Positions 4,227-55,481 of a DNA stretch of 64,000 bases are shown in pieces (the stretch's first letter is position 1; the number at the start of each line of letters is the position of its first letter). The DNA is taken from IMG/VR virus record IMGVR_UViG_2687453124_000003, one strand, 5' to 3'. Position numbers and translations under genes: made by a program. The stretch is from an uncultured virus (IMG/VR IMGVR_UViG_2687453124_000003) (taxonomy: Duplodnaviria > Heunggongvirae > Uroviricota > Caudoviricetes). Under the pieces are notes generated by a model. It worked only from the letters and a program-made list of their open reading frames with translations. It was not told the DNA's origin and searched no databases.

Positions 4227-4796
4227 CTAGCCCGAGCCAGAACCAAACAACCGGCGCAATCGCTGCTGCCATGACCTGCGGCGCTCTTCTGTTCTCGCCG
4301 CATCCATCGTCAGGCCCTGCCGCGGAGGTAGGCGAAAGCGCGAAGCATGATCATCGCCCACAGCCAGGAGTTGATCCATGGGAGAGTCGTACCTACTGAT
4401 GATCACCATCGGATCCGCGCCGGCGCGGCTAGCCATCTCCTCGGCCATTCGGTGCACGTAATCAATGAATTGGCGCATAGCCGACTCAGGATCGTCCACG
4501 GGTGGGCCCGCCGCAAAGGTGCTCGGAATGACCTGCATCGGGCCGTGACTCGCGCGCAACTCGTAGTGCTCGTCGATGTAAATCTCTCCGGCGGGTTCCT
4601 CCGATGGTTCGCGTTCCCCTACCGCGTGGCTTCCAGGGCAGCCGCCGCGGGGCAGGCCATGCCAGGGCGCACCACACCGGCATGCCGGTACACGCCCCGG
4701 CCTAGTCTCGCCGGCGGCTAGCTGACTGTCGATCAAATCGTCAGCTTCCAGCGCGTTGATCTCGGCGATCACAGCGTCTTCAGGATTTCCTTTCAA
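4227..4796 (-). CDS. Hypothetical protein
   Basis: 189-aa ORF with 4-bp overlap to the upstream gene; CxC..WHG..C cluster. Confidence 0.5.
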   Translation of the reverse strand: MKGNPEDAVIAEINALEADDLIDSQLAAGETRPGRVPACRCGAPWHGLPRGGCPGSHAVGEREPSEEPAGEIYIDEHYELRASHGPMQVIPSTFAAGPPVDDPESAMRQFIDYVHRMAEEMASRAGADPMVIISRYDSPMDQLLAVGDDHASRFRLPPRQGLTMDAARTEERRRSWQQRLRRLFGSGSG

Positions 4797-5506: not shown

Positions 5507-5518
5507 ACGCCTCACTCT

Positions 5519-5537
5519 ATTCTCTATTTTAGAGAAT
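5519..5537. promoter_or_regulatory. 19-bp palindromic operator, copy 2 (ATTCTCTATTTTAGAGAAT)
   Basis: Perfect consensus 12 bp upstream of a minus-strand start; reads TAAAAT (-10-like) on the minus strand. Confidence 0.85.
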
Positions 5538-5618
5538 TTCAACGGAGAAGGACGTGCCCCCGTGTCATCACCTATCGAGATGAGCACCACGCGCACCCGT
5601 TGGGCGTACACATCGGAG

Positions 5619-5861
5619 CTATCCGATGACCTGCTGCGTCGACTTGGCCGCCAAAAGCGACAGCTGCGCGATCTGAGCAAGAAGTGCGTCAGAGGCTCCT
5701 CGGCTGAGCTTGGTCGGATTGAGGTGCAGACTCAGTCCCACCGAACCGGCTTGTCCGAAATCGAATCGCAAGCGGCCTTCTGCCGGTCCAGAAGCGGCCA
5801 TCACCTCCAGCGCTGTCGCCAACGGCTGCGAATCCCACCGCGCGGGCAGCCGATCGGTCAC
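5619..5861 (-). CDS. Hypothetical protein
   Basis: 80-aa ORF in a chain of 4-bp overlaps. Confidence 0.5.
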   Translation of the reverse strand: MTDRLPARWDSQPLATALEVMAASGPAEGRLRFDFGQAGSVGLSLHLNPTKLSRGASDALLAQIAQLSLLAAKSTQQVIG

Positions 5862-9500: not shown

Positions 9501-9763
9501 TCAATTGGGATACGAATCGCTTTCCTTCGGCGTGCCGCGCACTCGTGTCGCATTCGTCAGCCCCGGATGTGTGCCCGTAGCTTGCCCGTCAATCGCCGCG
9601 CCACGTGGCGGGAGCCGTGACGGCCGGGCCGCGACCCCGGTCATTCCGGCGGTCAGCCCCCCATAGGAGCCGTGGCACCGAATGAACCCTGTCCTCTGCG
9701 GATGTGGCAGGTGGTCGCGGCGCCGGTAGCCCACGTCCGCGTGAAGCAGGAGGTACATCTCTC

Positions 9764-11770
9764 ATGGTCGATTCAGCACGCCTCAAGAAGAGCGCCCGCG
9801 AGTACATGGCAGCGCACCCGGGAGTCAAATATCAGCAGGCTCTCGCGATCGTTCGAGATCAAGACCTAGTTCCGATCGCAGCAGCGTCAGATACGCCGGT
9901 AGGTCCGCCGCCACCGGTGGCGGCGACTTCCCGTGCTGATGGCGGTGATCCGGCCGGCCCGGAGGCTTGGCTGAACGCACTCGGCGGCATCCCAACCGCC
10001 GACGAACTCGCAGCCCGCTGGGCCAATTCCGACACCGAACAGAGCCTGCGAGTTCCTATCGCAATGAGCGTCGATGACAATTTCAAGTTCAGCGATTCCC
10101 CAGAACCGGTCTGGCTAGATCTCGCCGAGGCCAAACTGGGCGGCAACGGCCCCCACGTGTTGATCACTGGACGCACCGGCAGCGGCAGGTCGGTTGCAAG
10201 CGAAGTTTTGCTCACCGGCCTGGCAGCCCTATACAGCCCCGACCGCCTACAGTTCGTCCTCATCGGCGGCGGTGTGCACCACCCGTATTTCGATCGACTT
10301 GCACAGCTGCCCCATACCGCGGCCTGGCTCTCAGATTCATCAACAGATCGAGTAGGTCTGACGGCCCTGTTGGACCAGTTGGATGCCGAGATCGCCCGCC
10401 GCGATGATCGAATCACCAGACACGGAGTAAAAGACATAGGCGAGTATCGCCAACTGGTGGAAGCCGGCAGCGCCGATCCGTTGCCGGATCTTCTAGTTGC
10501 GATCGAAGAAGTACGTACCGTTGTGCGCAATACCGAGTCGCTCGAAAAGCGCATCTTGCGCGTGCTCAGGGTCGGCCGGTCACTGGGCATACACGTTCTG
10601 CTCATCGATCAAGGTAATTTTGATTCCGAACTAAGCCAGCACGTCACTGCGAGCCTGAGTCTGGTTACGGGCTCGCCAACGCGCAGCCGGACATTGTTCG
10701 GCGCCGATGCCTCGACTCTTCACGGCCAGCCGATCGGATCTGCCCTCCTCCACACGCTCCCCCCTGTCGGAGCTGACGCCCTTACGTCACTGCGGATCTT
10801 CTGGATCTCCTCGCCAGCTGAATATGTACAGGAACTACTCAGAGTCTTGGTATCCATGCCGCGCCCGAGCTATCAGATCGTTCAACTCCCGAAGCGCCGC
10901 TGGGGTTTCGACACGTTGATCGGCTTGGACGATTTCAAGGATCAGAGCCGCGCCCTGATCGCCTCAGCACGCATCGAGGCAGAGCTCGTGCGGCGCGGTA
11001 TGCCGCGCTCCCCTCGTGCCATGAACTTCGCATTCACCGGGCCGTCGGGAACAGGGAAAACACTGGCGGCAAAGGCACTTTCACACGAGCTGTTCCGGGG
11101 CGGTGTCACCACAAGGGATAGCTTCGTGCAGGCGAACCGGTCTTCATTGGTCGGCACCGTCGAGGGTGAATCGGCAGTAAAGACACGGAAAGTCCTGGAA
11201 GAAGCGCGGGGCGGAGTCATCCTCTTGGAGAACGCGCATGAACTCATACAGCAGCGAGGATTTGGAGGAGACCCCTTCGGCGCAGACGCCTTGAGCGCCT
11301 TGCTGGACTTCATGGACGGCAACAAAGGCGAACTTGTAGTGATATTCAGCGGCGATGAACCATCCCTCGAGCGGTTCTTCAACGACAATCCCGGTGTCCG
11401 CACTCGTCTGCAGCACCAGATTCGTTTCGCCCCCGCAGATTCCGAACAACTTTGGGAAATTCTCGTTCGGCATGCAGAACAGAGCGGCCGAGTGATCGAC
11501 GCCGGGGCACGTGAGAGGTTCCTTGAGACCGCTACGAAGCTCCGCGCCACGCTCAACGGTCGTGGATCATCGATGCTCGACGTACTCGGCAACGGGCGCT
11601 TCGCTTCCAGCATCTGTGAGCGCGCGCAACATCGTGCTGCGAGTCGACTCGCTGGCGCGGAATTGTTGACCCTGACTGATTTGGATCTACTGCTGCTCAC
11701 GACTGACGATGTCAACGGCGCCATCGACGAACTGATCCGCACATTCAAGATCGATCTCGCCGTTAGCTGA
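9764..11770 (+). CDS. Fusion of an EccC-like FtsK domain and an EccA/CbxX-like AAA+ domain
   Basis: GNGPHVLITGRTGSGRS, YSPDRLQFVLI, GRSLGIHVLL (EccC ATPase-1-like); then LIGL, FTGPSGTGKT, RSSLVG, ARGGVILLENA, NPGVRTR, GNGRF (EccA/SpoVK-like); AGGAGG RBS. Confidence 0.8.
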   Translation: MVDSARLKKSAREYMAAHPGVKYQQALAIVRDQDLVPIAAASDTPVGPPPPVAATSRADGGDPAGPEAWLNALGGIPTADELAARWANSDTEQSLRVPIAMSVDDNFKFSDSPEPVWLDLAEAKLGGNGPHVLITGRTGSGRSVASEVLLTGLAALYSPDRLQFVLIGGGVHHPYFDRLAQLPHTAAWLSDSSTDRVGLTALLDQLDAEIARRDDRITRHGVKDIGEYRQLVEAGSADPLPDLLVAIEEVRTVVRNTESLEKRILRVLRVGRSLGIHVLLIDQGNFDSELSQHVTASLSLVTGSPTRSRTLFGADASTLHGQPIGSALLHTLPPVGADALTSLRIFWISSPAEYVQELLRVLVSMPRPSYQIVQLPKRRWGFDTLIGLDDFKDQSRALIASARIEAELVRRGMPRSPRAMNFAFTGPSGTGKTLAAKALSHELFRGGVTTRDSFVQANRSSLVGTVEGESAVKTRKVLEEARGGVILLENAHELIQQRGFGGDPFGADALSALLDFMDGNKGELVVIFSGDEPSLERFFNDNPGVRTRLQHQIRFAPADSEQLWEILVRHAEQSGRVIDAGARERFLETATKLRATLNGRGSSMLDVLGNGRFASSICERAQHRAASRLAGAELLTLTDLDLLLLTTDDVNGAIDELIRTFKIDLAVS

Positions 11771-13030: not shown

Positions 13031-13663
13031 CTACGGCAAAAGTGCGCGCCAGGCATCGCGATCGATTCCGCGGGTGCGGCGATAAATCTGGTCCCGGGGC
13101 ATGCCAAGGGTTCGGGCTACCCAGACCATGGGCACGGTCAACTCAACGGCAGCAGCGATGAGGCTCAACAGTGGTTGTGCATCATCACCGTTCAGCCCTC
13201 CTTCGCGGAGCTTGACCAGGGCATCGTCGAGGCCAGCGCCGGCCACCCACGCAAGTTCCAGCGTGGCGGCATCCGGGGAGTCGAAGCCTTCGACGAATTG
13301 GCGCACTGTGCGCGTCAGTTCAGTCGCCGTACTCGGATGTGGGTGCAACAACCACCTTTCCATCGAGAGGGCCAGTGCCGGCGCCGCGCCGGTGTCGTCG
13401 GAATTCGCCGCCAGAACGTCAGCCACCAGGGATGACAACGCCCCAGCACGCCGCCGTGAGCCAGCGCCGTCACCTGCGGAATGGATCAAGGGGTACACCC
13501 GGCGCGAGGTCTGGGACCGCACCGGATCTGCTGATGTGAGCGCAGCCACGACCAGCGCGGTTGTCGCCGCGCGCTCGACGGTGTCAAACAGCTGCATTCG
13601 GCGTTGCCCGCTGATCCGTCGCTGGTGACTCGTCACACCATCTGATTCGATCGTTGTCGTCAC
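13031..13663 (-). CDS. Hypothetical protein with C-terminal HTH
   Basis: C-terminal VARTLGMPRDQIYRR; GTG start overlaps the protease stop. Confidence 0.5.
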   Translation of the reverse strand: MTTTIESDGVTSHQRRISGQRRMQLFDTVERAATTALVVAALTSADPVRSQTSRRVYPLIHSAGDGAGSRRRAGALSSLVADVLAANSDDTGAAPALALSMERWLLHPHPSTATELTRTVRQFVEGFDSPDAATLELAWVAGAGLDDALVKLREGGLNGDDAQPLLSLIAAAVELTVPMVWVARTLGMPRDQIYRRTRGIDRDAWRALLP

Positions 13664-14493
13664 GAGATGCCCTTCTTGTCGTCGACAATCAGCCGCACCT
13701 TGAGCCGCTCCAAGACCGGCGCCAGGTAAGTCGCGAAATTGTCGGTATCGCTCGGCCCGCCGTGCAGCATGCCGATCGCCTGTGCGTCGCCGCTGCTGTT
13801 GACGACGAACACCGGCGCACCCGAGTCCCCCTGTACTGCGGCACCACCCCACTCGAGCTGATCGTCTCCAGCAGCGATCAGCGGCCCGCATGTCAGACCT
13901 GAACGAGAACCATTCATGCACACCGGAGTTCCCGCAGGAAGAGCCTTGGCCGACGGGACCGACATCACGCCACGCAGCCGTATCCCGTCGTTGATCACGG
14001 TTCCGTAGGCCACTTCTTGTTGTGCTGGAGACAAGAAGAACAGGGCCGCGTCATACCTGCGGCCAGCGTCATCGACTCCGCGTTCGGCGTTCTGCAGCGG
14101 TGAGAGGTTCAGGCGACCAGCGCCTTCAGCGTCGGTGTACATCCACAGGGGCGCACCTTCTTTGCGATCGCAGTGCCCGGCTGTCAGGTACCCGATGTCG
14201 CTGCGAGTGCTGACAATCGGCCATGAAATGGTGCATTCAGACACCTCGGTGGGATCGAACTGCTGGACCAAACTCACCCCGGGTCGTGGGTACGCGGCGG
14301 CAGTGAATGCCACCGGCGGCCGTGAGCCGCGGACACCGGCGATCGATATCCACGCATCACTGCCGGGCGTCGGTTCGGCATTGGCCGTCGGCTCTGCGAC
14401 CCAGCTGGTCGCCGTTGCAAGTACGAGCGCGACCGCCCAACCTGCGGCGCGCGCGGCACACCTTCTCCCGCGCCGGGAGCTGGCAGATCTCAT
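13660..14493 (-). CDS. Secreted trypsin-like (S1) serine protease
   Basis: Signal peptide, LTAGHC (His), YDAALF (Asp), GDSGAP (Ser). Confidence 0.85.
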   Translation of the reverse strand: MRSASSRRGRRCAARAAGWAVALVLATATSWVAEPTANAEPTPGSDAWISIAGVRGSRPPVAFTAAAYPRPGVSLVQQFDPTEVSECTISWPIVSTRSDIGYLTAGHCDRKEGAPLWMYTDAEGAGRLNLSPLQNAERGVDDAGRRYDAALFFLSPAQQEVAYGTVINDGIRLRGVMSVPSAKALPAGTPVCMNGSRSGLTCGPLIAAGDDQLEWGGAAVQGDSGAPVFVVNSSGDAQAIGMLHGGPSDTDNFATYLAPVLERLKVRLIVDDKKGIS

Positions 14494-14690
14494 GGCCTCT
14501 CCTCGCTCGCGAATCTCTGCGTTCCAACGCGCGCAGAATACACAGATGCCGCTTTGGATTCGCTGGCATCACACGCGGTAACAGAACTCCCCGGGGCGCA
14601 CGCGCCGCAGCCCGGGCGCCAGGTCTGCAGGCCCTATTCTCCGCCGCAATATCGCGTCATCTCGACCGAGATCTTTCAGGAGACCGACTT

Positions 14691-15518
14691 ATGTCCACAG
14701 GTAAGCGTCCAGTTCTGTCGGCGATAGCAGCCGCGGCGGCAATCGCTGCGATCGGAGGCGGCGTCGCGCATGCTGACCCCGCATCGGATCCGACTTCAGA
14801 TGTGGCGACAATCACCTGCGATATGCCGGATTGCGGAACCGAACCGGCAACCGAACCGATTGTCGAGCACCATCTCGTCGACGAAGAGTCTACGCCTGAG
14901 CCGGTCATCGAGGCGACAGACGAAGAGGCCGCCGCCGAACCTATCGACGAAGCACCGCCAGTCGACGATGCAGCACGCGACGAAGAACCGATCACGGTAG
15001 AGGAACCGATACCCGGCGCTGCTCCGTCACGTCCCCTGGTGCTCGTGCCGGTTGCTTCGACCAGGCCTGTCACCGAGGCAGCCGCGATCGATAAGTCCAA
15101 GATCATCTACACCGCACACCCTGTCCCCCATGTCACCGATGCGGACATCTCGGCTGGGTTGCAGGCCGCCGGCGTAAACCCACGGCTATTTGGGCAATTC
15201 GACACCGCCACACGCACGATCATGGGCGGGGAATCCGGTGGCGCAACCAACGCCGTGAACCGCGGAGATTCCAATGCCTGGGGCGCCCGGCAGCCTGACG
15301 GCGCACCAGCTGGAAGCTCGCGCGGCCTCATGCAGACTGTCCCAGGGACTTTCGCAGCCAATCATGCCCCGGGCACCTCCACGTTCATCTACGACCCGGT
15401 GGCCAATATCGCCGCGGCATGGCGCTACATCGCCGTGCGCTACCACGTTGATCTGCACACCGGCACCGGTTTGGTCACCTTCATGGCGCGCGGCGTCGGC
15501 CACGGCGTCGGTTACTGA
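14691..15518 (+). CDS. Secreted lytic transglycosylase (SLT domain)
   Basis: Signal peptide ending AHA, acidic linker, ESGG..NAVN, GLMQ, DPVANI.A..RY; AGGAG RBS. Confidence 0.85.
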   Translation: MSTGKRPVLSAIAAAAAIAAIGGGVAHADPASDPTSDVATITCDMPDCGTEPATEPIVEHHLVDEESTPEPVIEATDEEAAAEPIDEAPPVDDAARDEEPITVEEPIPGAAPSRPLVLVPVASTRPVTEAAAIDKSKIIYTAHPVPHVTDADISAGLQAAGVNPRLFGQFDTATRTIMGGESGGATNAVNRGDSNAWGARQPDGAPAGSSRGLMQTVPGTFAANHAPGTSTFIYDPVANIAAAWRYIAVRYHVDLHTGTGLVTFMARGVGHGVGY

Positions 15519-15554: not shown

Positions 15555-17789
15555 ATGACCGACCCCATCGAGCAAGCGATCGACCGCTACAACGCAGTCC
15601 TGACCCAACCAACCGGCAGACTGTGGGCGCCGGTGTGCCTCAGGCAAATCGAAGACGCTGTCGATGCGAAGTACGGTGCGGGCGCCTGGAAGCGGGACCT
15701 CGCACCCGAACTCAGTTCCGAGCTCGTCGCTGGCAAGCGCCTGGATCCGGCCATACTGGTCGCGCGGCTCAAGGACGCGGGATCCCACACTGACCGCACG
15801 CCACCAGACTCGAGTTCGCCGGCGCCAGCTGGGACCACACCGGCAATCTCGACGCTGCTGTCGGGACCACCGGACGGTGAACGTAAATGGCTCCAGGGCA
15901 ACGCAGTTCTCCCCGCATTGGATCCGAGCGACAACACCGCGCTCAACGCGCTCGACGCAGGTATCGAGGCACTCAATCAGTCCTGGTTTGTCGTCGACCC
16001 GGCTCAAGCCTGGTTTCCGGACGGCGCGCGTTTCCCCGGCTCTGGCACGAGCATCTCCTCTCTGGGCGCAACGTACGATCTGGCCAAGAACCTGATCCCG
16101 CAATGGCGCATCGCAATCGATACTCTGCTGAAGGCCTTCGAGGGTTCGGGTGAGCAACTGATCGAACAGCAGCTGGTGAAGATCCGAGCCTCGCTCACCA
16201 CGTTGGCCACCGACGCCGAGTCGTCGAGCGATCTGCACAATCAGATTGCGCGCTACGGGATCGCGGCAAACGACAGTTTTCAGCAGCTGCGCGGCGAGGA
16301 GCTGGCGAAACGAAAAGACATCGCCGACACCGCCAGAGGGGTGGCACGCGCGAAGATGAACGTGAGCCTCCCTCAGGGCATCCATGTCACCGACGAAGCA
16401 GTGGACAAGGCAGACGTCACCGCCTACAGCTCACGCGGCGAGTTCGTGAAGATCGCCCCCGCCGCGACCACGCTTAGCAAGACCGACGAAGTGACACGCC
16501 ACGGCGCCGCAATCGCTGCCATCGCCAAACAGATCACCGTCCCGGCAGCCGTGGCACCGGAGCTGATTAGTGCTGGAGTGGCCGGCGCAGACAATGGCAC
16601 CGCGCATGGGACTACGCCGGCTGGTCGCCCCGGATCCTCTGCCGCTGCCCCTGGCGGTCGGCCCGGGGCTTCGACTTCGGCCGGAGCGGGCAAGGGCGCC
16701 ACTTCCGATCTGTCCAAACTGCTCTCTGCACTGGGCACCGGAGGACTCGGTCAACAGCTTCCGGGCGCTATCGCGCCCGCTCAACAAGCCGCTCAACAAG
16801 CCGCTCAACCCCTCAATCAGGCTGCCCAACAAGCCGCACAACAGGCAGGGAAGGTTCCCGAAGAGCTGCTCAAGTCATTGAAAAGCGCAGCTCCGGACAA
16901 TCAGCGCCACACCGGTCTGGACACCGCGGCGGCCAAGGCCGCGGGCAAGGATCGCTCAGCGGCGACCACAGCGACATTCAGCGCGCCCGGGCCGGCCACG
17001 CCGAAGTCTGTGGGCATGCCGGGCAGTGACGCGCGTCCGCACCAGCTCGATGCCACCGGGAAGCCAGTGGATAAGGAACACACCGGAAAAGTCGACAAAG
17101 ACGCGGTCCCCCTGTCCAAGAAGTCGATCAAGCCGTTCGATCTCGCCGTTCCGGCCAACGGACACAACGTGCAGGTGAAGAACATCCCGGACCCCCGCCT
17201 GGGCGAGATGATGCTGAACATGGCCGACGCCACCGCTGACAAGCCTTGTTCGGTGCTCGATGCTGCGAAGGCATCCGGGATGGATCTGACCTCCCTGGGC
17301 GATCCCATCGACCCCGAAGACGTTCAGGTGGGTGACGCGGTGATCGGTGCCTATCAGTCCGGAATGTACCTCGGTGAGGGGCTGGTGATGACTTCGACCG
17401 GATTGATCGAGAACCTCGCAGAGGTGCTCGGCGACAACGGTTTCATCTCCGAGATCCCGCTTCCGGATCTCCCCGACGATGCACCGCTGACAGACGCCAA
17501 CGGCGAAGCACCGCCGGCCAATCCGGCACCTGCTCCGTCTGACTCTGCGGCTAGGGACGTGACACCGCTTCCGCCGAATCCTGCTCCGGCCGTACCGAAC
17601 GCGGCGCCGGCGCCCGCTGCAACACCGGCCGAGCCCGCGGCAGCACCACCACAAGTCGCGCCCACTCCTCCCCCGCCTCCGCCGGTGCAACCCTCTGCAC
17701 CACCCGCACCGCCGGCAGCCGCACCAGAGGTAGCACCCACGGGCCCGATGCCCCAACAGGTGAACTACCAAGGGCACGCATTGGGATGA
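15555..17789 (+). CDS. Large ESX-associated putative secreted substrate (helical N-terminus, NlpC/P60-like fragment, Pro-rich tail)
   Basis: 744 aa, upstream of espG-like and WXG100-like genes; VQVGDAV..GMYLGEG segment; AQQA repeats. Confidence 0.55.
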   Translation: MTDPIEQAIDRYNAVLTQPTGRLWAPVCLRQIEDAVDAKYGAGAWKRDLAPELSSELVAGKRLDPAILVARLKDAGSHTDRTPPDSSSPAPAGTTPAISTLLSGPPDGERKWLQGNAVLPALDPSDNTALNALDAGIEALNQSWFVVDPAQAWFPDGARFPGSGTSISSLGATYDLAKNLIPQWRIAIDTLLKAFEGSGEQLIEQQLVKIRASLTTLATDAESSSDLHNQIARYGIAANDSFQQLRGEELAKRKDIADTARGVARAKMNVSLPQGIHVTDEAVDKADVTAYSSRGEFVKIAPAATTLSKTDEVTRHGAAIAAIAKQITVPAAVAPELISAGVAGADNGTAHGTTPAGRPGSSAAAPGGRPGASTSAGAGKGATSDLSKLLSALGTGGLGQQLPGAIAPAQQAAQQAAQPLNQAAQQAAQQAGKVPEELLKSLKSAAPDNQRHTGLDTAAAKAAGKDRSAATTATFSAPGPATPKSVGMPGSDARPHQLDATGKPVDKEHTGKVDKDAVPLSKKSIKPFDLAVPANGHNVQVKNIPDPRLGEMMLNMADATADKPCSVLDAAKASGMDLTSLGDPIDPEDVQVGDAVIGAYQSGMYLGEGLVMTSTGLIENLAEVLGDNGFISEIPLPDLPDDAPLTDANGEAPPANPAPAPSDSAARDVTPLPPNPAPAVPNAAPAPAATPAEPAAAPPQVAPTPPPPPPVQPSAPPAPPAAAPEVAPTGPMPQQVNYQGHALG

Positions 17790-17836: not shown

Positions 17837-19207
17837 GTGATCAATGAGCAACTTCAGGCGATCCTCGAATGTGGACTGAGCACCACAAACGACGAACAGC
17901 CACCCACGTCAGATGCGCTAGCACAGCAAGATCCACCGCTGTCGGAGTTCGGAGACAGTCGTGGTGAATCTGCCCAGGACACAAACGAAGACGGCCATGC
18001 TCGGCCCACCGAGGCGGATAGGCCCAAAGACACGGTTCAAGCGCGCATCCAGGCGGCCTTGACCGCCTATCCAGAGATGGCGCCGATCGCCGAGTCTGCC
18101 GGGGCCGATATTCGCATGAACCCTGACGGCACCATCAAAGTCTCCGACGCCATGCGCGCTGCGATGCGTGCGCTGGTTCCGGGACGTGACAAGGCCCCAG
18201 CTGACGGCCCCTATCGCAGCATCAACAGCTGGCTCACTGCTGACAACACCGTCACACCGGTGACCGAGACGTCACCGTACTTCACGGTCTCCCACTGGCA
18301 TTGGCTGGCTGCCAAGTCGATGGTGCGCCAGATCCCGATCGAGTTGGGGCCGACTTTTCCGCATCTATCCACCTCAGAGGCGCAGATTAGTCACGACCTC
18401 ACGGCGTGGCAGGCCCTCGACGAACACGGCCACTTGACCGACGAGGCCAAGCAGATGTTCGACGCAGTGACAGGTCACGCCGAACTGACTGTGTACTGCA
18501 CGGTGCTCCTCTACGCACAGCGACGGGCGCCTGTAGAGGTTCCTGCCGAATTGAAGCCGTACGGCGTTCAGGCCGCGGTACGTGATGTTCCCCGTGTGAC
18601 TTTCGTGATCGGCGTGGGCAAGCGCGAAGTGGTCTCAGCGCTGATCAACAACACCACCGTGGTGTTCAGCCGCCGACTGCGCCGCGATGGAGCCAGCGCC
18701 GACGCCGCGGCTGCTGTTCTTGACCTCTTGGACCCTGAAGGCCAATGGCCGGCCTACCCGCTCAAGACCCCGATCGTCCTGCCGGGGGCTGTGGTCGATC
18801 AACTCCACTCGGACTCGGATGCCTCGAAACTCTTCGACAGCGAACCCGAGCCGGACGCTGACGAGAAGATTCGTGCCGAAGCTGATGCGGTACGTGAGCG
18901 TGCGCGCAAGGCAGCCCGCAACGTACTGAAAGCAGCCAAGACGCCCGCAGGAGCTCAGGCAGCAATTGCGGAAATCGCGGGGTGCACAACCCACGCGCTG
19001 GCGACAGTGACGGTCAGCACGAGTGATGTCGATGTGTCACGAGGCGGGCCCGGCGCTCTGGCCTTGGCCTTCATGCGGGGGCGGGGAATTATCGCCTCAT
19101 ACCCAAGCGGCTCGGGCATGTTCAAACGCATCACGTTCAAATCCGGCAACATAGACGGCATCAAAAACGGCATCGATGCGCTCAGCAATGCCTTCAGAGG
19201 GGCTTAG
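17837..19207 (+). CDS. espG: EspG-like ESX chaperone
   Basis: W..L....P.ELGP, helix-turn DLTAWQALDEHGHL pattern, position before a ~100-aa gene pair; divergent, start uncertain. Confidence 0.5.
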   Translation: MINEQLQAILECGLSTTNDEQPPTSDALAQQDPPLSEFGDSRGESAQDTNEDGHARPTEADRPKDTVQARIQAALTAYPEMAPIAESAGADIRMNPDGTIKVSDAMRAAMRALVPGRDKAPADGPYRSINSWLTADNTVTPVTETSPYFTVSHWHWLAAKSMVRQIPIELGPTFPHLSTSEAQISHDLTAWQALDEHGHLTDEAKQMFDAVTGHAELTVYCTVLLYAQRRAPVEVPAELKPYGVQAAVRDVPRVTFVIGVGKREVVSALINNTTVVFSRRLRRDGASADAAAAVLDLLDPEGQWPAYPLKTPIVLPGAVVDQLHSDSDASKLFDSEPEPDADEKIRAEADAVRERARKAARNVLKAAKTPAGAQAAIAEIAGCTTHALATVTVSTSDVDVSRGGPGALALAFMRGRGIIASYPSGSGMFKRITFKSGNIDGIKNGIDALSNAFRGA

Positions 19208-19270
19208 CGCGGATTTTTGCGCTACCATCTGCCTTGGAATCACCCATCGGCTACGACCATCGGAGAAAAC

Positions 19271-19579
19271 ATGGGTACAAGCGGCAGCGTTGCGATCGCT
19301 CCCGAAGACGCACTCAAGATCTGCGACAACCTGCAGAACGAGACCGACACTATGCGCCAGGCACTGGGACGGATCGGCAACACCATTGGCGATCTGCAGG
19401 CCCACAGCTACATCTCGGACACCATGGACGCGTTCCAGGGCAAGTTTGAGAGTGAGTCCAGCCCCCAACTGCTGAAGGTCCTTAACCGGGCGGACGCCGC
19501 TGTAGCCGGCACGCGTGAAGTGATCCGGGTCCAGCTGGAGCGCCAGGCCAGCGGCGCCCAAGCGGTGCAGCGAGCGTAA
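19271..19579 (+). CDS. WXG100-like protein 1 (non-canonical)
   Basis: 102 aa, helical; central YISD.MDAFQ where WxG..AF is usual; GGAG RBS. Confidence 0.65.
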   Translation: MGTSGSVAIAPEDALKICDNLQNETDTMRQALGRIGNTIGDLQAHSYISDTMDAFQGKFESESSPQLLKVLNRADAAVAGTREVIRVQLERQASGAQAVQRA

Positions 19580-19617
19580 TCGGCCTCGGACAACCGACTC
19601 AGGAAAGGACCTAAACA

Positions 19618-19917
19618 ATGACCAAGCAACTTCACCTCGACATCCCCGGAGCCCAGGGCGACGTCCACAAGCTCGACACGGATCTGAAGATCCTCGACGA
19701 AGCCGCGGGTCGGCAGCTTCAGGCATACCAGCAGCTTGCGGGCTCCGTTAAGGGCGTCGGCATGGACACCGCCACCGACTTCTCGCGTGAGCAGAACTCG
19801 GCGATCACCAGCGTTCACAGTGTCGTCGAGCATTGCCGGACCTCGACACAGGGCGCCATCAACGAGACGATCGGTTACGACCACAGCGTCGCCGGCGGCA
19901 AGATGACCGGGCAGTAA
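19618..19917 (+). CDS. WXG100-like protein 2 (non-canonical)
   Basis: 99 aa, helical, central VKG; AAAGGA RBS; tandem pair followed by a terminator. Confidence 0.65.
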   Translation: MTKQLHLDIPGAQGDVHKLDTDLKILDEAAGRQLQAYQQLAGSVKGVGMDTATDFSREQNSAITSVHSVVEHCRTSTQGAINETIGYDHSVAGGKMTGQ

Positions 19918-51203: not shown

Positions 51204-54200
51204 CTATGCAGACTGCCGAAGCGCCTGCTGCTCTTGCTGCAATCGCCGGGCCACCGCGTCGACGTCGATTCGTGCGGTCTGCACCATCACGTAGTCGTCG
51301 GCGTCGACGATGATCCGCCCCTGTCCGGCACGCCAGCGCATCGGCTTGAGGTGATACGCCTGACCGATGGGATCGCCGGACGACGGCGGGCTGGCCAGCT
51401 GCAGGATTGGCGCCATCATGTTCTCGCGCAACGCCACCAGGAACTCAGATGACTTCACCCTGCCCGCGAACCCGCTGCTGCTATCCGAGACGATGAAGTG
51501 CACGCCGAGGTCCGTTCCGGTAGCGAGCAGTTCACTGACGCTCACGCCGCCGTATCGCACCTCATCGAACACCGACTTGGCCGAGTGCCCCTTGGACATG
51601 TTGGCGAAGTTGTCGACAAACACGTATACCTCGGGTCCGGTGAAGAACGTCCGCGAGCTCAGTTGCTCGGCGGTCGCATCATCGGTGGGACGGCGCGACC
51701 CCATCAGCTTGACCAACATCTCCGCCGTGTCAGCGATGTCCTCGGCGCTGGTGACATATCCCGGTGGACGTATCCGCTCGCGAACCATCGCTCCGTCGCG
51801 CTCCACTTCCCGGAACTTGGCGGGCTTGACGAATCCTCGCTCGTACAGACGATCTCGTTCTCCAAGGTGCTGTCGCAGCGGATCGATCACAATGATGATC
51901 GCGTCCTTCGGGGTGAATTGACGCATCACCGACTCCATGACGCTACGCAGCAAGTTGGTCTTGCCGGCGCCCTTCTCGCTGTAGACCAACAGGTTCTGCG
52001 AGAAGTTCGGGACGGGAGCCAAGGACAACGTGTCCATCCGCACGCCCAGCGGGATGATCGTGTTCACGGGGTGGCGGTCCTTGTCGCTGAGCGGAGCGAA
52101 GGCAGACCACACCTGCTCGTAGTCGATCACCGGGTCTGCCGGCAGCACCCTGACCACGCGCTGCTCGGCCAGTTCAGCTGACAGATGCAGGCACAGGTTC
52201 CGAATCTCTTCACCATGATCGTGGATCTTGAAATCCTTCATACCCTTGACATAACCGTCCTCTTCGATCTCCCGGAAGATCGGAACAGCGGTGCGGCACT
52301 GCAGCAGTGTCAGCGGGTCCAAAGACCGACCAGGCTGATCCACCGGAATACGCTCGCTCAGGGTGAAGCGCACTTCGGAAGAAACCTTGGCCCCGGCGTA
52401 GTCCGTCGATGGCAGCTGAACACCGCCGTTGACCTCCGCGGTGTAGTGAGTCACGTTGCCCGCGTTACCCGACCCTCCCGAGTCCGCGGTGTACACCAGG
52501 TGCACACCCACAGCGGCACCCTTATCGAGGATCGGGCGCAGCAGCTGCGCACGCACAGCGCGGTCATCCTTCTCACCGAGGAATCCACCAATGCCGTCAA
52601 TGGCCACAATCACGTACCCATACGGGTCATCTGCCACAGGGGCATTGGCCTTGGACGCCAAATATGCGTCAACCGAGGATGCTTGGCGGTCAACCATCTC
52701 GCGGCGTCGCACTTCGATCAAGCGTGAAGCCTCACCGAGAATGCGCGCGGTGGTTTCGTCGTCTTCCGGTCGCGCGTACGCCGCGACATTGGGGCTGTCT
52801 TTGACCTCTCCGAGCTTGCCGGTGCCGTAGTCGGCGAGCATGAATGCCAAACGCTCCGGTCCGTGTTGAATGCAGCCGCACACGACCAGTGTCTGAAGCA
52901 GCGTGGTACGCCCCGACTTGCCTGCACCGGCGATCACCTGGTGCGGGATGTTCCCGCCGAAGTCCATGAACCACGGCAGTCGCGTGTGCTTCTCGGGGGC
53001 ATCGAGGTCGCCCACCCTGATCTTCAGCCCCTTGACTTCTCGGGTCAGATTGAGCGTCGGCAGCGACAAAGGCTCGCGCAGCGATGGCTTCCACAGGTCC
53101 AAGGTGCGCATATCGGACAGTCGCGAGGCCTTCTCCAGGAGCACGTCGGCCATCTTCTCGCCGAATTGTTCCTCGGTGACCTCCACCGTGTCTTCTTCGA
53201 CCTCCGGAGTGAATCCCCGGGTAGTGAACAGCGTGAACGGAACTACAGGCTCTGCAACTGCACCTGAGCCGTCCGCCCGGGAGCGGGCACGCTCTGTCAC
53301 GGTTCGTCGGATGTAGGGGGCCTCGTGGTGGAATGCAGCCACTTCGACGGGAGCTGCGTCAGTGGTGAACTTGCGCAGGATCTTTCCCTTGAGTCCACCC
53401 TTCTTGCCCACCATCGTCGCTGCGTCGTCGGTACCGAGCATCGCGATGGAATAGCTCGCACTGTTGACCGACAGCGAGTAGCGGAAACTCAAGTGCTCAA
53501 AGAGGTCACCGATCACGTCCTTGTTGATGAACTGGCTGCACATCACCAGGTGCATACCCAGCGAGCGACCAACGCGACCGACACGGATCAACAGATCCAA
53601 GTAGCCGGGACGTTCCTTGAGGAACTCACCGAACTCGTCGATGATGACGATCAAGTCCGGAAGCGGAGGCCAGCTTGGATCGTTCGGGTGCTTCTTCTGC
53701 TGCTCCCGGTAGTCGAAGATGTCCTTGCAACCCTTTTCGGTGGTGATGAACTCCTCGCGGCGATTCACTTCGCCGTTGATCACCGCACCGAGTCGGTCGA
53801 CCAGCTCCATCGTGTTCTCAAGGTTGGAGATGGATGCCACGACATGTGGCAGCCCGTCCATTCCCAGGAACGTTGCGCCGCCCTTGAAGTCGGCCAGGAT
53901 CAGTGCGACTTTGTCCGGGCCGTACATGGCGATGAGCGCCAGCACTATCGCGCGCAGGAAGTACGACTTACCCGATCCGGTACGTCCGGCCACCGCGCCG
54001 TGCGGGCCGTTGCCGTCGCGGTTCTCCTCGTAGAAGTTCAGGTAGGTCAGCTCTGAGGTAAGTTCGTCGCCCTTGCGGTAGTAGCCGAACGGAACCTTGA
54101 TTTCATCGGTATAGGCGTTGCGCTTCCACACTTCGATCAAGTCGTGGGTCTCGATATCGCCGATCTCGAGTACTTCGAAGAAGTCCGGAATGTGGTCGGG

Positions 54201-55481
54201 GCGATCGTCAACCACAGCTCCGTTGACGCCATAGTTGCGTGGGCGCCATTTGTACATGGCCCGTGCGAATACCTCGGCTTGCGCGATCGTCACCGAGTCC
54301 GCGGCGGCCGCGTCGTAGTCGTCGACTGTTGAGACGCGACCGTCCTTGAGCAGAATGCGGCTCTTCATCTTTACGGGGTCGGTGACCAGGTCTTGGCCGT
54401 AGCGCACCACGAACCACGTCATGCCGTTGACTCCGCCGGAGATGTTCGCCGGCCAGGACACCATCGCGTCGGGCAGATCGATGATTAGCAGCAGGTGTGG
54501 TGGGCGCTCGTCGCTGGCCTCATTGCGCATCCGCTCGATCTGCGCCGCGTGCATCGCTGCGAATTCGTCGAGGCTGCGCCATGTGAGCAGCCGCGCGCCC
54601 AGCCCCTTTTCAACCCGCGTCACATCTTCGGTATGTGGCAGCCACTTCACCCATTCCCACGTCTTGGGGTCGTTGGTCACCACGCCGATGTTCAGATCAC
54701 TGGGCCGATGGTTGAACGCCAGCGACATAAGCATGGCCCGTACAAGCCCTAGCCTGCCTTCCTCGTCACCGCGCATCGCATAGGCGGGAAACTCGTTGAG
54801 CCGCACATCGATCGGAAGGTTGGCCACTACAGACAACGTGTTGATGGCGCGGTCGTAGCGCACCATTGTCGCCGGTTCCTGCATCTCGGGGACGACGTCG
54901 TCCGCCTGGATCAGCTTGGGATACAAGGGCGCCACACCGATCCCGACACGGGCACGCAGGTATGGGTTGGACGTCAGATTCTTGACGTCCGGGTCCGATT
55001 CAACGGCTGGCGCAACTACCCGGCCGATGTCGAGATTACGGTCGGCCTGCCACATCTCGTGAGTGCCGACCAGCGACAGAAGGTCAGCCGGATGCGGGAA
55101 GCACATGGTACGTAGGTCGTGCATAGCGCGGCCCTGGTCGTAGATCTCGAAACGCCTCTCGCGCAGCTCGAGATCGTATTCCTCTATCTCTTGGTCGATG
55201 TCGCCCCCGCTGCTGCCCTGGTTGCGCATCTGCATGGCGTACATCAGCGGCATCATGAGCATGAGCGGCATGCTGGAGAGCATGGTGACGATGGCGCGCT
55301 GACCGGTGACCAGTGACATCACCACCATGCCGATCATCACGGCGACCATGATCAAAGGCATTGCGCGAAGCCAAATGGGCCGCTTGTCCGGAGCGGGCAA
55401 GCCGAGCGGTTCCTTGATCTGCACACCGGTGGGCAACAGCTGAACTGACTCTCGCGGCGGTGCCCGGAAAACGGTAAACAT
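51204..55481 (-). CDS. eccC: Type VII secretion ATPase EccC (2 TM, three FtsK domains)
   Basis: WVKWLPH, GPHG..AGRTGSGKS, ADFKGG, IIDEF, GRSLGMHL; second GAGKSGRTT; third EKGAGKTN. Confidence 0.92.
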   Translation of the reverse strand: MFTVFRAPPRESVQLLPTGVQIKEPLGLPAPDKRPIWLRAMPLIMVAVMIGMVVMSLVTGQRAIVTMLSSMPLMLMMPLMYAMQMRNQGSSGGDIDQEIEEYDLELRERRFEIYDQGRAMHDLRTMCFPHPADLLSLVGTHEMWQADRNLDIGRVVAPAVESDPDVKNLTSNPYLRARVGIGVAPLYPKLIQADDVVPEMQEPATMVRYDRAINTLSVVANLPIDVRLNEFPAYAMRGDEEGRLGLVRAMLMSLAFNHRPSDLNIGVVTNDPKTWEWVKWLPHTEDVTRVEKGLGARLLTWRSLDEFAAMHAAQIERMRNEASDERPPHLLLIIDLPDAMVSWPANISGGVNGMTWFVVRYGQDLVTDPVKMKSRILLKDGRVSTVDDYDAAAADSVTIAQAEVFARAMYKWRPRNYGVNGAVVDDRPDHIPDFFEVLEIGDIETHDLIEVWKRNAYTDEIKVPFGYYRKGDELTSELTYLNFYEENRDGNGPHGAVAGRTGSGKSYFLRAIVLALIAMYGPDKVALILADFKGGATFLGMDGLPHVVASISNLENTMELVDRLGAVINGEVNRREEFITTEKGCKDIFDYREQQKKHPNDPSWPPLPDLIVIIDEFGEFLKERPGYLDLLIRVGRVGRSLGMHLVMCSQFINKDVIGDLFEHLSFRYSLSVNSASYSIAMLGTDDAATMVGKKGGLKGKILRKFTTDAAPVEVAAFHHEAPYIRRTVTERARSRADGSGAVAEPVVPFTLFTTRGFTPEVEEDTVEVTEEQFGEKMADVLLEKASRLSDMRTLDLWKPSLREPLSLPTLNLTREVKGLKIRVGDLDAPEKHTRLPWFMDFGGNIPHQVIAGAGKSGRTTLLQTLVVCGCIQHGPERLAFMLADYGTGKLGEVKDSPNVAAYARPEDDETTARILGEASRLIEVRRREMVDRQASSVDAYLASKANAPVADDPYGYVIVAIDGIGGFLGEKDDRAVRAQLLRPILDKGAAVGVHLVYTADSGGSGNAGNVTHYTAEVNGGVQLPSTDYAGAKVSSEVRFTLSERIPVDQPGRSLDPLTLLQCRTAVPIFREIEEDGYVKGMKDFKIHDHGEEIRNLCLHLSAELAEQRVVRVLPADPVIDYEQVWSAFAPLSDKDRHPVNTIIPLGVRMDTLSLAPVPNFSQNLLVYSEKGAGKTNLLRSVMESVMRQFTPKDAIIIVIDPLRQHLGERDRLYERGFVKPAKFREVERDGAMVRERIRPPGYVTSAEDIADTAEMLVKLMGSRRPTDDATAEQLSSRTFFTGPEVYVFVDNFANMSKGHSAKSVFDEVRYGGVSVSELLATGTDLGVHFIVSDSSSGFAGRVKSSEFLVALRENMMAPILQLASPPSSGDPIGQAYHLKPMRWRAGQGRIIVDADDYVMVQTARIDVDAVARRLQQEQQALRQSA

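What the first reader, a model, noticed from the sequence alone, without database searches (positions are those of the whole stretch)
9764..11770. EccC-like FtsK domain fused to an EccA-like AAA+ domain, both with altered catalytic motifs
Seen: one ORF joins an EccC ATPase-1-like domain (Walker A GSGRS with K to R; Walker B IEEV) to a CbxX/EccA-like AAA+ domain (intact GTGKT; Walker B LLENA in place of FIDEA). It has no TM or TPR region. Known: EccA and EccC are normally separate T7SS components. Inference: a soluble adaptor, regulator or dominant-negative inhibitor of the element's or the host's ESX machines.
Basis: partly seen in the sequence, partly recalled or inferred. Interest (0 to 1): 0.7.

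Follow-up and report, generated by a model that had tools for sequence, protein, structure and literature searches.

The report
Soluble EccC–EccA chimeric secretion ATPase
This gene encodes a soluble protein that joins the motor domain of one type VII secretion ATPase (EccC) to the ATPase domain of another (EccA), and it is a conserved part of a stripped-down secretion gene set carried by a large mobile element of mycobacteria and their relatives.

Summary
ORF 9764-11770 (+) encodes a 668-aa soluble protein. It has a 33-aa two-helix N-terminal mini-domain, a disordered linker, an EccC ATPase-1 (D1) FtsK/SpoIIIE domain, and an EccA-type AAA+ domain with lid. The motif changes are as reported: D1 Walker A GSGRS, D1 Walker B IEE, AAA+ Walker B LLEN.

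It is not an artefact. Nine further clusters (75-96% identical, 665-668 aa) keep the fusion. Forms of about 1,000 aa occur in Tsukamurella and Mycolicibacterium.

The long form is colinear with residues 423-1113 of this element's own EccC (53% identity). The EccA-type AAA+ domain sits exactly where EccC's third ATPase domain would be.

Both domains fall within T7SS lineages in trees. In all five related genomes or records searched, the gene lies 36-67 kb from a cognate EccC. It also lies near a protein with a predicted EspG-chaperone fold. The one complete related record has no other EccA-like gene.

Best reading: it is the cytosolic accessory ATPase of a reduced, element-borne T7SS. In this allele it probably binds ATP but hydrolyses it poorly, so it acts as an adaptor or regulator. 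The dominant-negative idea has no specific support. The K-to-R change is confined to a sublineage. I rate it a new variant of a known kind, of moderate to high interest.

The parts
9748..9753 (+). Shine-Dalgarno-like AGGAGG, 10 nt upstream of the ATG
   Evidence: Read from the sequence.
9764..11770 (+). Whole ORF, 668 aa plus stop: the soluble EccC-D1/EccA-AAA+ chimera
   Evidence: The exact sequence is on record on 178 contigs, the longest 5.26 Mb.
9764..9862 (+). N-terminal mini-domain, aa 1-33, two predicted helices (2-17 and 23-33). It is the most conserved part of the protein.
   Evidence: AF2 model. Identity is 97% among the 10 Mycobacteroides-type short forms and 63% between short and long forms, against 34% for D1 and AAA+. 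Within the loci and genomes searched it occurs only in this gene.
9863..9958 (+). Pro/Ala-rich linker, aa 34-65, predicted disordered
   Evidence: pLDDT is below 50 for aa 34-58.
9959..10768 (+). Pre-D1 helices and the EccC ATPase-1 (FtsK/SpoIIIE) domain, aa 66-335
   Evidence: Pfam and NCBIfam. 31% identity to D1 of the window's own EccC. T. curvata EccC 4nh0 is the best FtsK-type match by sequence and the top match by fold. Trees.
10169..10192 (+). D1 Walker A, GRTGSGRS (Arg where Lys is canonical)
10490..10510 (+). D1 Walker B, LLVAIEE (Glu-Glu where Asp-Glu is canonical)
10769..10903 (+). Interdomain segment, aa 336-380. It sits where long forms carry a second FtsK domain (D2).
   Evidence: Alignment. 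It shows no significant residual similarity to D2.
10904..11443 (+). EccA-type AAA+ alpha/beta domain, aa 381-560
   Evidence: EccA1 C-terminal domain 9lur at 3.2e-39. CbbX fold with TM 0.67-0.75. Tree.
11039..11062 (+). AAA+ Walker A, GPSGTGKT (intact)
11213..11236 (+). AAA+ Walker B, GVILLENA (Glu-Asn where Asp-Glu is canonical)
11444..11767 (+). AAA+ lid domain and C-terminal helices, aa 561-668
   Evidence: AAA_lid_6. Model.
13660..14493 (-). Secreted S1-type serine protease (Rv1815 family match). It belongs to the conserved neighbourhood.
   Evidence: Conserved in L001-L004.
14307..15518 (+). Lytic transglycosylase (SLT domain). The real start is probably inside this ORF, ahead of a signal-like segment.
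   Evidence: Conserved in L001-L004.
15555..17789 (+). 744-aa protein with no signal peptide or TM segment. Candidate secreted cell-wall hydrolase.
   Evidence: Atlas lead to DUF4226 and NlpC/P60; this is a lead only.
17837..19207 (+). 456-aa protein with a predicted EspG-chaperone fold
   Evidence: No Pfam hit. AF2 pLDDT 80.3. All 15 listed Foldseek matches with E below 0.001 (ranks 1-17) are EspG5, EspG3 or EspG1, E 3.7e-12 to 4.6e-07. One match region per related genome or record, in two adjoining pieces in G002.
19217..19917 (+). Two ORFs of about 100 aa (19217-19579 and 19618-19917). Possible Esx/WXG100-like pair; this is an inference.
   Evidence: Position and size are conserved in L002-L004 and L009. 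No family or PDB match.
51204..55481 (-). The element's own EccC (1,425 aa). Long-form relatives of the chimera are colinear with its residues 423-1113.
55502..57301 (-). EccB

Best explanation
What it is. The gene encodes a soluble chimera of two type VII secretion ATPases. It is a core gene of a large tRNA-array-bearing mobile element of Mycobacteriales.

How it arose (inferred from shown colinearity and trees). A copy of the element's own eccC lost its membrane and DUF region to a 33-aa two-helix mini-domain. Its third ATPase domain (D3, the substrate-receptor tier) was replaced by an EccA-type AAA+ module. That gave the form of about 1,000 aa seen in other genera. The Mycobacteroides form studied here additionally lacks D2, and its D1 has diverged fast.

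Proposed mechanism (inferred).
- It is the cytosolic accessory ATPase of the element's reduced T7SS. That set comprises EccB, EccC, an EspG-fold chaperone, two proteins of about 100 aa, and signal-less or secreted cell-wall hydrolases. No separate EccA is present.
- It assembles into rings through its FtsK-like and AAA+ modules.
- Its EccC-derived part and the invariant mini-domain dock it to the EccC motor or to cargo.
- Its EccA-type part acts on chaperone-substrate complexes. This is the role proposed for EccA in canonical systems.
- In this allele the catalytic motifs of both sites are changed: Walker A Lys to Arg and Walker B Asp-Glu to Glu-Glu in D1, and Walker B Asp-Glu to Glu-Asn in AAA+. 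It therefore most likely binds nucleotide but turns it over poorly. It would then work as a nucleotide-dependent adaptor or regulator, not as a motor.

Shown: architecture, homology, origin, conservation, co-occurrence and motif states.
Inferred: oligomer state, partners, loss of hydrolysis, and role in secretion.
For: Architecture:
- Pfam and NCBIfam and PDB sequence search (EccA1 C-terminal domain 3.2e-39; T. curvata EccC D1) agree.
- The AF2 model has pLDDT 81.6.
- Foldseek top hits are the EccC cytoplasmic domain (8.4e-22) and CbbX (3.3e-20).

The fusion is real and conserved:
- 9 clusters at 75-96% identity, all 665-668 aa.
- 4 long forms and 4 further short-type representatives found among 1.84 billion proteins.

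Origin:
- Long form P0013 is 53% identical over 692 aa to window EccC residues 423-1113 and ends where D3 begins.
- Long-form D1 and D2 group with the window EccC's D1 and D2 (SH-aLRT 98 each; 69% and 53% identity).
- All 14 fusion D1s lie within a plasmid-type EccC clade (support 84).
- All 14 fusion AAA+ domains form one group (92). That group is sister to a plasmid-type EccA (96) and lies inside a clade holding all 6 EccAs (96). 25 CbbX/SpoVK-like domains fall outside.

Context:
- A cognate EccC lies 36-67 kb away in G001, G002, G003, W01 and G239, at 61-70% identity.
- The neighbourhood with S1 protease, SLT, the large protein and the 456-aa protein is syntenic in L001-L004.
- The 456-aa protein has an EspG fold. 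It gives one match region in each related genome or record, split into two adjoining pieces in G002.
- In the whole 264-kb record W01 the chimera is the only EccA-like match.
- The window holds no other EccA-like sequence. A related plasmid type has eccA-eccB-eccC contiguous.

Constraint:
- The N-terminal domain is 97% conserved among short forms.
- The AAA+ Walker A and the GRSLG motif of D1 are near-invariant.

Background: EccA has been hypothesised to release EspG from PPE substrates (PMC10597459, introduction passage read).
Against: - There is no experimental or expression evidence. RNA runs gave one read pair.
- No binding test could be run.
- Motif drift and a very long D1 stem branch (1.26-1.64 changes per site) are also what a gene losing its function would show.
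- The gene is not in one operon with the EspG-fold module. It lies 2 kb from it here and about 10 kb from it in Tsukamurella, with convergent genes between.
- The element's T7SS set looks incomplete. No EccD or mycosin was found in W01, so whether it secretes anything is unknown.
- Tree supports for some key nodes are below 95, and both later trees are quick searches. The careful search did not finish.
- That Lys-to-Arg and loss of the Walker B Glu abolish hydrolysis is general knowledge of P-loop ATPases. It was not tested here.
Confidence: 0.6

Rival explanations
1. Decaying remnant. In the Mycobacteroides lineage the chimera has lost its job and is drifting. The open frame persists only because the change is recent.
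For: - It lacks D2.
- D1 Walker A and B vary among close relatives: K or R, and DE, EE or DD.
- None of the 10 short forms keeps the AAA+ Walker B Asp-Glu.
- The D1 stem branch is 1.26-1.64 changes per site.
Against: - All 10 sequences spanning 75-96% identity keep a full-length frame of 665-668 aa.
- The N-terminal domain is 97% conserved.
- GRSLG (9 of 10), the AAA+ Walker A G-GTGKT frame (the second and third positions vary), VRTR and GNGRF are invariant or nearly so among them.
- The exact sequence is on 178 contigs.
- Loss of the AAA+ Walker B Glu is shared by 17 of 18 family members, so it is old and tolerated.
Confidence: 0.13
2. Dominant-negative or exclusion factor. The soluble D1 co-assembles with EccC rings of the host's ESX systems or of rival elements and blocks them.
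For: - The family's D1 is up to 69% identical to a membrane EccC D1, so mixed rings are conceivable.
- This allele carries changes expected to cripple hydrolysis.
Against: - 13 of 18 family members keep the D1 Walker A Lys and 9 of 18 keep the Asp-Glu Walker B.
- The closest EccC is always the element's own, not a chromosomal one.
- Bin G003 shows one EccB and no EccD. The bin may be incomplete.
- The EccA-type half and the invariant mini-domain are unexplained by a pure poison.
Confidence: 0.12
3. DNA translocase or coupling ATPase. The chimera pumps or recruits the element's DNA for transfer or partition, as TraB or FtsK do.
For: - FtsK/SpoIIIE fold. The FtsK motor is among the fold matches (E 1.5e-13).
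- The basic two-helix N-terminal domain could bind DNA (inference).
- Related giant plasmids are reported to lack relaxase and VirD4 (PMC12803027, passages read).
Against: - NCBIfam scores for TraB (18.6 bits) and FtsK (13.5 bits) are far below EccCa (126 bits).
- Both trees place D1 inside EccC.
- There is no membrane anchor and no wHTH or gamma domain.
- The partner domain is an EccA-type protein remodeller.
Confidence: 0.1
4. Anti-phage defence ATPase unrelated to secretion.
For: - Weak PADLOC matches of the FtsK domain to mad8 (56 bits) and SspH (47 bits).
- The element carries defence-like and counter-defence-like genes: GmrSD, and an NAD-salvage, NUDIX and Macro cluster.
Against: - The PADLOC matches cover only the generic P-loop domain and are weaker than the T7SS matches.
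- No defence partner genes are adjacent.
- The gene travels with EccB, EccC and an EspG-fold protein.
Confidence: 0.05

Closest known systems
EccC (T7SS FtsK/SpoIIIE-type translocase; TIGR03924/TIGR03925), in particular the plasmid-type EccC encoded at 51204-55481 of this window
   Same: The D1 domain is homologous: 31% identity to the window EccC's D1, and up to 69% for long-form relatives. GRSLG and the Walker B Glu are kept. Long forms are colinear with EccC from before D1 to the D2-D3 linker.
   Different: It has no transmembrane helices, no DUF domain and no D3. Here there is also no D2. It has one FtsK domain instead of three. Walker A has Arg for Lys and Walker B has Glu for Asp. It scores 126 bits against a 509-bit cut-off.
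EccA (T7SS cytosolic AAA+ ATPase of the CbxX/SpoVK group; TIGR03922)
   Same: The C-terminal AAA+ and lid module matches profile positions 276-557 of 557. The best PDB match is the EccA1 C-terminal domain. It sits inside the EccA clade, nearest a plasmid-type EccA.
   Different: It has no N-terminal TPR domain. Walker B is Glu-Asn, not Asp-Glu. The residue aligned to the Tyr of EccA1 and CbbX in the loop after Walker A is Val. That this Tyr is the pore-loop residue is recalled, not tested. It scores 175.6 bits against a 466.65-bit cut-off.
Split EccCa1/EccCb1 of ESX-1, which has a soluble EccC piece
   Same: A precedent for a cytosolic, membrane-free piece of EccC acting with a membrane-bound partner. 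The ESX-1 split itself is recalled. An EccCb1 D2 structure is among the matches.
   Different: EccCb1 is D2-D3 and carries the substrate receptor. This protein is D1 (plus D2 in long forms) with an EccA module in place of D3, and it coexists with a full-length EccC.
Two-tier AAA+ unfoldases (p97/Cdc48 type)
   Same: Two nucleotide-binding modules in series in one soluble chain. They appear as whole-chain fold matches.
   Different: The first tier here is an FtsK/RecA-like domain, not AAA+. The whole-chain matches have poor superposition (rmsd above 20 Å). There is no evidence of a threading pore.

Membership tests
FtsK/SpoIIIE superfamily (PF01580) | Domain match above Pfam's gathering score | tested here: met
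   66 bits against a cut-off of 24, E 4.4e-18, aa 113-263.
FtsK/SpoIIIE superfamily (PF01580) | Canonical Walker A GxxGxGK[ST] and Walker B hhhhDE | tested here: not met
   GRTGSGRS and LLVAIEE. 13 of 18 family members keep Lys.
EccC (TIGR03924 EccCa, TIGR03925 EccCb) | Score above the curated equivalog cut-off | tested here: not met
   126 bits against 509.15, and 87.7 bits against 346.55.
EccC | N-terminal transmembrane helices and DUF domain | tested here: not met
   No hydrophobic segment. The match to the EccCa profile starts at position 393 of 673.
EccC | Three consecutive FtsK-like ATPase domains | tested here: not met
   One domain here and two in long forms. An AAA+ domain replaces D3.
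EccC | The ATPase domain falls within the EccC D1 lineage | tested here: met
   It lies inside the D1 side of the tree and inside a plasmid-type EccC clade with support 84. The branch is long, so the exact place is unsure.
EccA (TIGR03922) | Score above the curated equivalog cut-off | tested here: not met
   175.6 bits against 466.65.
EccA | N-terminal TPR domain | tested here: not met
   Only profile positions 276-557 are matched. No TPR family among the 25 of 26 Pfam matches listed at E up to 1.
EccA | C-terminal CbxX-type AAA+ and lid within the EccA lineage | tested here: met
   EccA1 C-terminal domain at 3.2e-39. The tree clade with all 6 EccAs has support 96, and the sister is a plasmid-type EccA.
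EccA | Catalytic Walker B Asp-Glu | tested here: not met
   LLEN. Only 1 of 18 family members has Asp-Glu.
Conjugative dsDNA translocase TraB / FtsK | Family-level match and a DNA-recognition (wHTH or gamma) domain | tested here: not met
   TraB 18.6 bits against 800; FtsK 13.5 bits against 1566. No such domain in Pfam.
Functional ATPase (either site) | ATP hydrolysis | not testable with these tools
   Only motif states can be read. This needs an enzyme assay.

The most novel reading that the evidence does not exclude
The chimera is a natural 'Rosetta stone' for how EccA works. In the long form, an EccA-type AAA+ ring takes the exact place of EccC's substrate-receptor tier D3, below D1-D2. This implies that in type VII secretion generally the EccA hexamer acts in series with the EccC ATPase stack, docking coaxially at its cytosolic end. 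There it would strip EspG from cargo and hand the cargo to the motor. In this element the two steps have been welded into one soluble protein. That protein is tethered by a new 33-aa docking domain and serves a minimal EccB-EccC machine that may lack EccD and mycosin.
Probability: 0.25. Interest if true: 0.8.

Novelty: new variant of a known kind. Interest (0 to 1): 0.58.

Why it matters
The role of EccA in type VII secretion is unsettled. The paper read calls its importance controversial. A conserved natural fusion that puts an EccA-type module where EccC's D3 sits is an evolutionary statement that the two ATPases act on the same pathway step. It also offers a compact soluble protein in which that coupling can be studied.

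The family marks a little-described class of large mobile elements in Mycobacteriales. These elements combine tRNA arrays, replication genes and a reduced ESX-like gene set. They occur in many isolates of a clinically important non-tuberculous mycobacterium: the exact protein is on 178 contigs.

Public annotations call the protein variously 'EccA1', 'FtsK/SpoIIIE domain-containing', 'AAA family ATPase' or 'RNA polymerase subunit sigma-54'. Some start it at Met101, which removes the most conserved domain.

Tried and rejected
- Own-genome search: no genome is held for this window.
- DNA searches of the gene and of 49 kb of the window against plasmids: no close relative, only short patches.
- Phage collection: only single-domain matches; 0 of 220 records cover 80% of the protein.
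- Earlier findings of this scan: nothing on record.
- D2 relics. MAFFT aligned the interdomain segment (aa 336-380) to pieces of the long forms' D2. Local alignment against 300 shuffles gave z 0.0-1.8, so no relic is shown.
- N-terminal mini-domain elsewhere. A regular-expression scan of all loci and a 40-aa search of four genomes or records found it only in this gene. Its function stays unknown.
- Sequence-level link of the 456-aa neighbour to EspG: none in PDB (best E 0.76). Only the fold comparison showed it.
- The two small ORFs: no Pfam or PDB match. 'Esx-like' remains an inference.
- Defence reading: PADLOC gave only generic FtsK-domain matches.
- Expression. No RNA run holds the stretch well. 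Four runs were laid. One gave a single read pair, two gave nothing, and one of unknown kind gave low-depth contigs. This is no evidence either way.
- The careful tree did not finish, so the quick tree is reported. The trees are also quick searches. In one search, five rows labelled 'oth_' inside the fusion group are members of the fusion family's own clusters fetched, not outsiders.
- Two alignment or scan calls failed on my wrong coordinates and were dropped.
- Literature. Three full-text searches and passages of four papers gave no description of this fusion. Supplements of PMC12803027 (its table of core gene families) were not opened and might list relatives.
Full report
**1. The observation**

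The ORF begins at ATG 9764 and ends with the stop at 11768-11770. AGGAGG lies at 9748-9753, 10 nt upstream. It gives 668 aa.

Pfam finds three domains:
- FtsK_SpoIIIE at aa 113-263 (E 4.4e-18)
- AAA at aa 424-533 (1.2e-15)
- AAA_lid_6 at aa 589-650 (4.5e-07)

NCBIfam ranks the T7SS models first for each half:
- EccA over aa 383-659, matching only the C-terminal half of the profile (positions 276-557 of 557; 1.5e-51)
- EccCa over aa 65-331, matching the ATPase-1 end of its profile (positions 393-656 of 673; 2e-36)
- SpoVK and CbbX score lower for the second half.
- Plasmid TraB (18.6 bits) and FtsK (13.5 bits) score far lower for the first half.

A hydropathy scan finds no membrane segment. Pfam lists no TPR among the families shown.

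**2. The fusion is real and conserved**

A search of 5.8 billion proteins returned 61 hits.
- Nine clusters at 75-96% identity are all 665-668 aa and carry both domains. Those with a source name are named for Mycobacteroides abscessus.
- Four proteins of 972-1,010 aa from Mycolicibacterium, Tsukamurella and unnamed sources match over the whole length.

The exact window sequence is on record on 178 contigs. The longest is 5.26 Mb, so in at least some isolates the element sits in the chromosome. Its database names range from 'EccA1' to 'FtsK/SpoIIIE domain-containing' to 'RNA polymerase subunit sigma-54'. The 568-aa versions are the same gene called from Met101.

A profile search of 1.84 billion representatives added four more one-FtsK-plus-one-AAA+ proteins of 614-721 aa. 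The rest of its top 150 are multi-AAA+ or multi-FtsK proteins.

Among plasmid records only 1 of 631 matching records covers 80% or more of the protein. Among phage records, 0 of 220 do. With a 130-aa N-terminal probe, 2 of 401 sampled species genomes of the family matched, one being the reference of that search. The gene is therefore sporadic, as expected of mobile-element cargo.

**3. Anatomy of the family**

All members begin with a conserved segment of about 33 aa (consensus MVxSxRLKxxARxYMxxHPxxxYQxAL). AF2 models it as two helices. It is the most conserved part of the protein:

| Region | Identity among the 10 short forms | Identity between short and long forms |
|---|---|---|
| N-terminal mini-domain | 97% | 63% |
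| D1 | 81% | 34% |
| AAA+ | 85% | 34% |

A disordered Pro-rich linker follows, then D1. Long forms then have a second FtsK domain with a degenerate P-loop (GGPKSGRST). Short forms have a segment of about 45 aa instead. That segment shows no significant likeness to D2. The AAA+ and lid domains close the protein.

Motif states across 18 family sequences (10 Mycobacteroides-type, 4 long, 4 other short):

| Motif | States |
|---|---|
| D1 Walker A | Lys in 13, Arg in 5 (the window and its four nearest clusters) |
| D1 Walker B | Asp-Glu in 9, Glu-Glu in 7, Asp-Asp in 2 |
| AAA+ Walker A Lys | kept in all 18 |
| AAA+ Walker B | canonical Asp-Glu in only 1 (P0012) |

The residue aligned with the Tyr of EccA1 and CbbX after Walker A is Val here. 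That this Tyr is the pore-loop residue is my recollection. The RxR aligned to the RSR of EccA1 and CbbX is kept in the Mycobacteroides forms but lost in most others. Its identity as the arginine finger is also recalled.

So the AAA+ half is catalytically atypical throughout the family. The D1 half is atypical only in the window's sublineage.

**4. Origin**

Long form P0013 aligns without rearrangement to residues 423-1113 of the window's own EccC (53% identity over 692 aa). The alignment runs from just before D1 through D2 and the D2-D3 linker. It stops where D3 begins, and there the AAA+ module starts.

Tree of 81 FtsK domains (quick search; the careful one did not finish):
- Long-form D1 groups with the window EccC's D1 (SH-aLRT 98; 69% identity).
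- Long-form D2 groups with its D2 (98; 53% identity).

Second tree, 31 rows:
- All 14 fusion D1s lie in a clade with plasmid-type EccCs (support 84).
- Chromosomal-type EccC D1s form a separate clade (97).
- The Mycobacteroides forms hang on a stem of 1.64 changes per site.

AAA+ tree, 51 rows:
- The fusion domains form one group (92).
- That group is sister to a plasmid-type EccA (96).
- Both lie inside a clade that holds all six EccAs sampled (96).
- 25 CbbX/SpoVK-like domains are separate.

The family's AAA+ profile scores plasmid-type EccAs at 262-272 bits, chromosomal EccAs at 195-217 bits, and the other AAA+ proteins printed from that search at 107-174 bits.

Both halves therefore come from T7SS genes.

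**5. Structure**

The AF2 model has pLDDT 81.6 and pTM 0.52, so the domains are confident but their mutual orientation is not. Foldseek's best matches are:
- T. curvata EccC cytoplasmic domain (E 8.4e-22)
- CbbX (3.3e-20; TM 0.67-0.75 on the target)
- EssC
- FtsK motor
- EccCb1 D2 (TM 0.77)

**6. Context**

The window looks like part of a large mobile element. It carries:
- family-A DNA polymerase, helicases and two WhiA paralogues
- a TIGR04338 metallohydrolase
- an NAD-salvage, NUDIX and Macro cluster
- GmrSD and LppX
- EccB and EccC
- at its end, nine tRNA genes in 1.8 kb

Giant linear plasmids of M. avium with a tRNA array and an 'ESX-P5' locus have been described (PMC12803027, passages read). 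A related M. chimaera plasmid has eccA-eccB-eccC contiguous. The window's EccB and EccC are only 37% and 31% identical to those, with no eccA beside eccB. The window holds no EccA-like sequence other than the chimera.

The closest relative of the whole region is Tsukamurella tyrosinosolvens 'plasmid 13'. It is syntenic from the SPFH gene through the chimera, protease, SLT, large protein, polymerase, helicase, WhiA, HNH and LppX to EccC.

In G001, G002, G003, W01 and G239 a cognate EccC (61-70% identity) lies 36-67 kb from the chimera. W01 and G239 give identical scores and are probably the same element.

The complete 264-kb record W01 contains:
- one EccB
- no EccD
- no mycosin
- no EccA-like match other than the chimera

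**7. The neighbours**

Downstream lies a conserved set:
- a secreted S1 protease
- an SLT lytic transglycosylase
- a 744-aa protein without signal peptide
- a 456-aa protein
- two ORFs of about 100 aa

The 456-aa protein has no Pfam, NCBIfam or PDB sequence match. An Atlas lead prompted a fold test. With a 46-sequence alignment AF2 gives pLDDT 80.3. All 15 listed Foldseek matches with E below 0.001 (ranks 1-17) are EspG5, EspG3 or EspG1 (E 3.7e-12 to 4.6e-07; TM 0.39-0.67 on the target). A gap then follows to E 3e-03. It gives one match region in each related genome or record, in two adjoining pieces in G002.

EspG is the PE/PPE chaperone of T7SS. EccA has been hypothesised to release it from cargo (PMC10597459, passage read).

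The two small ORFs resemble Esx/WXG100 pairs in size and position only. The 744-aa protein has an Atlas lead to DUF4226 and NlpC/P60. That is a lead and nothing more.

**8. Interpretation**

What is shown: this is a soluble chimera derived from EccC and EccA. It is conserved, and it always travels with a cognate EccC, EccB and an EspG-fold protein. It is the only EccA-like gene in the one complete related record (W01) and in this window.

What I infer:
- It is the cytosolic accessory ATPase of that reduced T7SS.
- It is ring-forming.
- It is docked by its EccC-derived part and mini-domain.
- It acts on chaperone-cargo complexes through its EccA-type part.
- In this allele it acts as a nucleotide-binding adaptor or regulator, because the catalytic motifs of both sites are changed.

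The rivals are decay, dominant-negative inhibition, DNA translocation and defence. They are weighed in their own sections. None is excluded by experiment.

**9. Limits**
- No expression data.
- No binding prediction.
- Quick trees with some supports below 95.
- One host bin is probably incomplete.
- The window covers only part of the element.
- No paper found in three searches describes the fusion. Supplements were not read.

Noticed in passing
window 62116-63883: An array of nine tRNA genes (Lys, Gly x2, Leu x2, Gln x2, Thr x2) in 1.8 kb, running to the window's end. A patch here is 81.5% identical to plasmid pCBMA213_1 of Mycolicibacterium sp. CBMA 213. tRNA array units on giant mycobacterial plasmids are described in PMC12803027.
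   Followed up: partly
window 17837-19207 (+): A 456-aa protein with no family match whose predicted structure is an EspG-chaperone fold with an N-terminal extension of about 120 aa. Its family has 48 clusters, none with a Pfam domain.
   Followed up: yes
window 15555-17789 (+): A 744-aa protein without signal peptide or TM segment. It has Ala/Gln/Pro-rich low-complexity stretches. Its C-terminal segment gives an Atlas lead to NlpC/P60 and DUF4226. It may be a T7SS-exported cell-wall hydrolase.
   Followed up: partly
window 1914-3323 (+): A second soluble ORF (469 aa) with a borderline FtsK/SpoIIIE P-loop match (23.7 bits against a cut-off of 24) and a GGAGRGKS Walker A. No homologue in the flanks of L001-L005.
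   Followed up: partly
window 51204-57301 (-): eccB-eccC stand without eccA, eccD, eccE or mycP nearby. The complete related record W01 has no EccD or mycosin match at all. The set may be a reduced or strongly divergent T7SS.
   Followed up: partly
G001:C1:3848158-3852390, G002:C4:37893-42125, G003:C19:167715-171947: The cognate EccC matches in three genomes each contain one in-frame TAG. In Tsukamurella the EccC match is in two overlapping pieces. This could be a split gene, a frameshift or read-through; I did not examine it.
   Followed up: no
window 30143-31174 and 32990-33958 (+): Two WhiA paralogues, each with all three WhiA domains, on one mobile element. Tsukamurella's element has one.
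   Followed up: no
window 44079-48110 (-): A cluster of NUDIX hydrolase, NAMPT-type phosphoribosyltransferase, RyR-domain protein, a second phosphoribosyltransferase and a Macro-domain protein. It looks like an NAD-salvage and ADP-ribose-handling module, possibly counter-defence.
   Followed up: no
window 20889-21182 (-): A 97-aa ORF matching only positions 100-149 of the PPE domain (E 3.2e-13). It is directly followed by a 296-aa ORF with no match. This may be a divergent or fragmented PPE-like gene beside the EspG-fold gene.
   Followed up: no
window 9764-10063: Public records often start this gene at Met101 (568-aa versions, one on 156 contigs). That removes the N-terminal mini-domain, which is the most conserved part of the protein.
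   Followed up: yes
window 4793-5680, 31783-32325, 34214-34930, 60024-60662: Several ORFs match phage protein families of unknown function strongly (phrog_4095 at 3e-97, phrog_10414, phrog_9210, phrog_7371 at 3.5e-63). No virion structural gene was seen among the 55 ORFs scanned.
   Followed up: no
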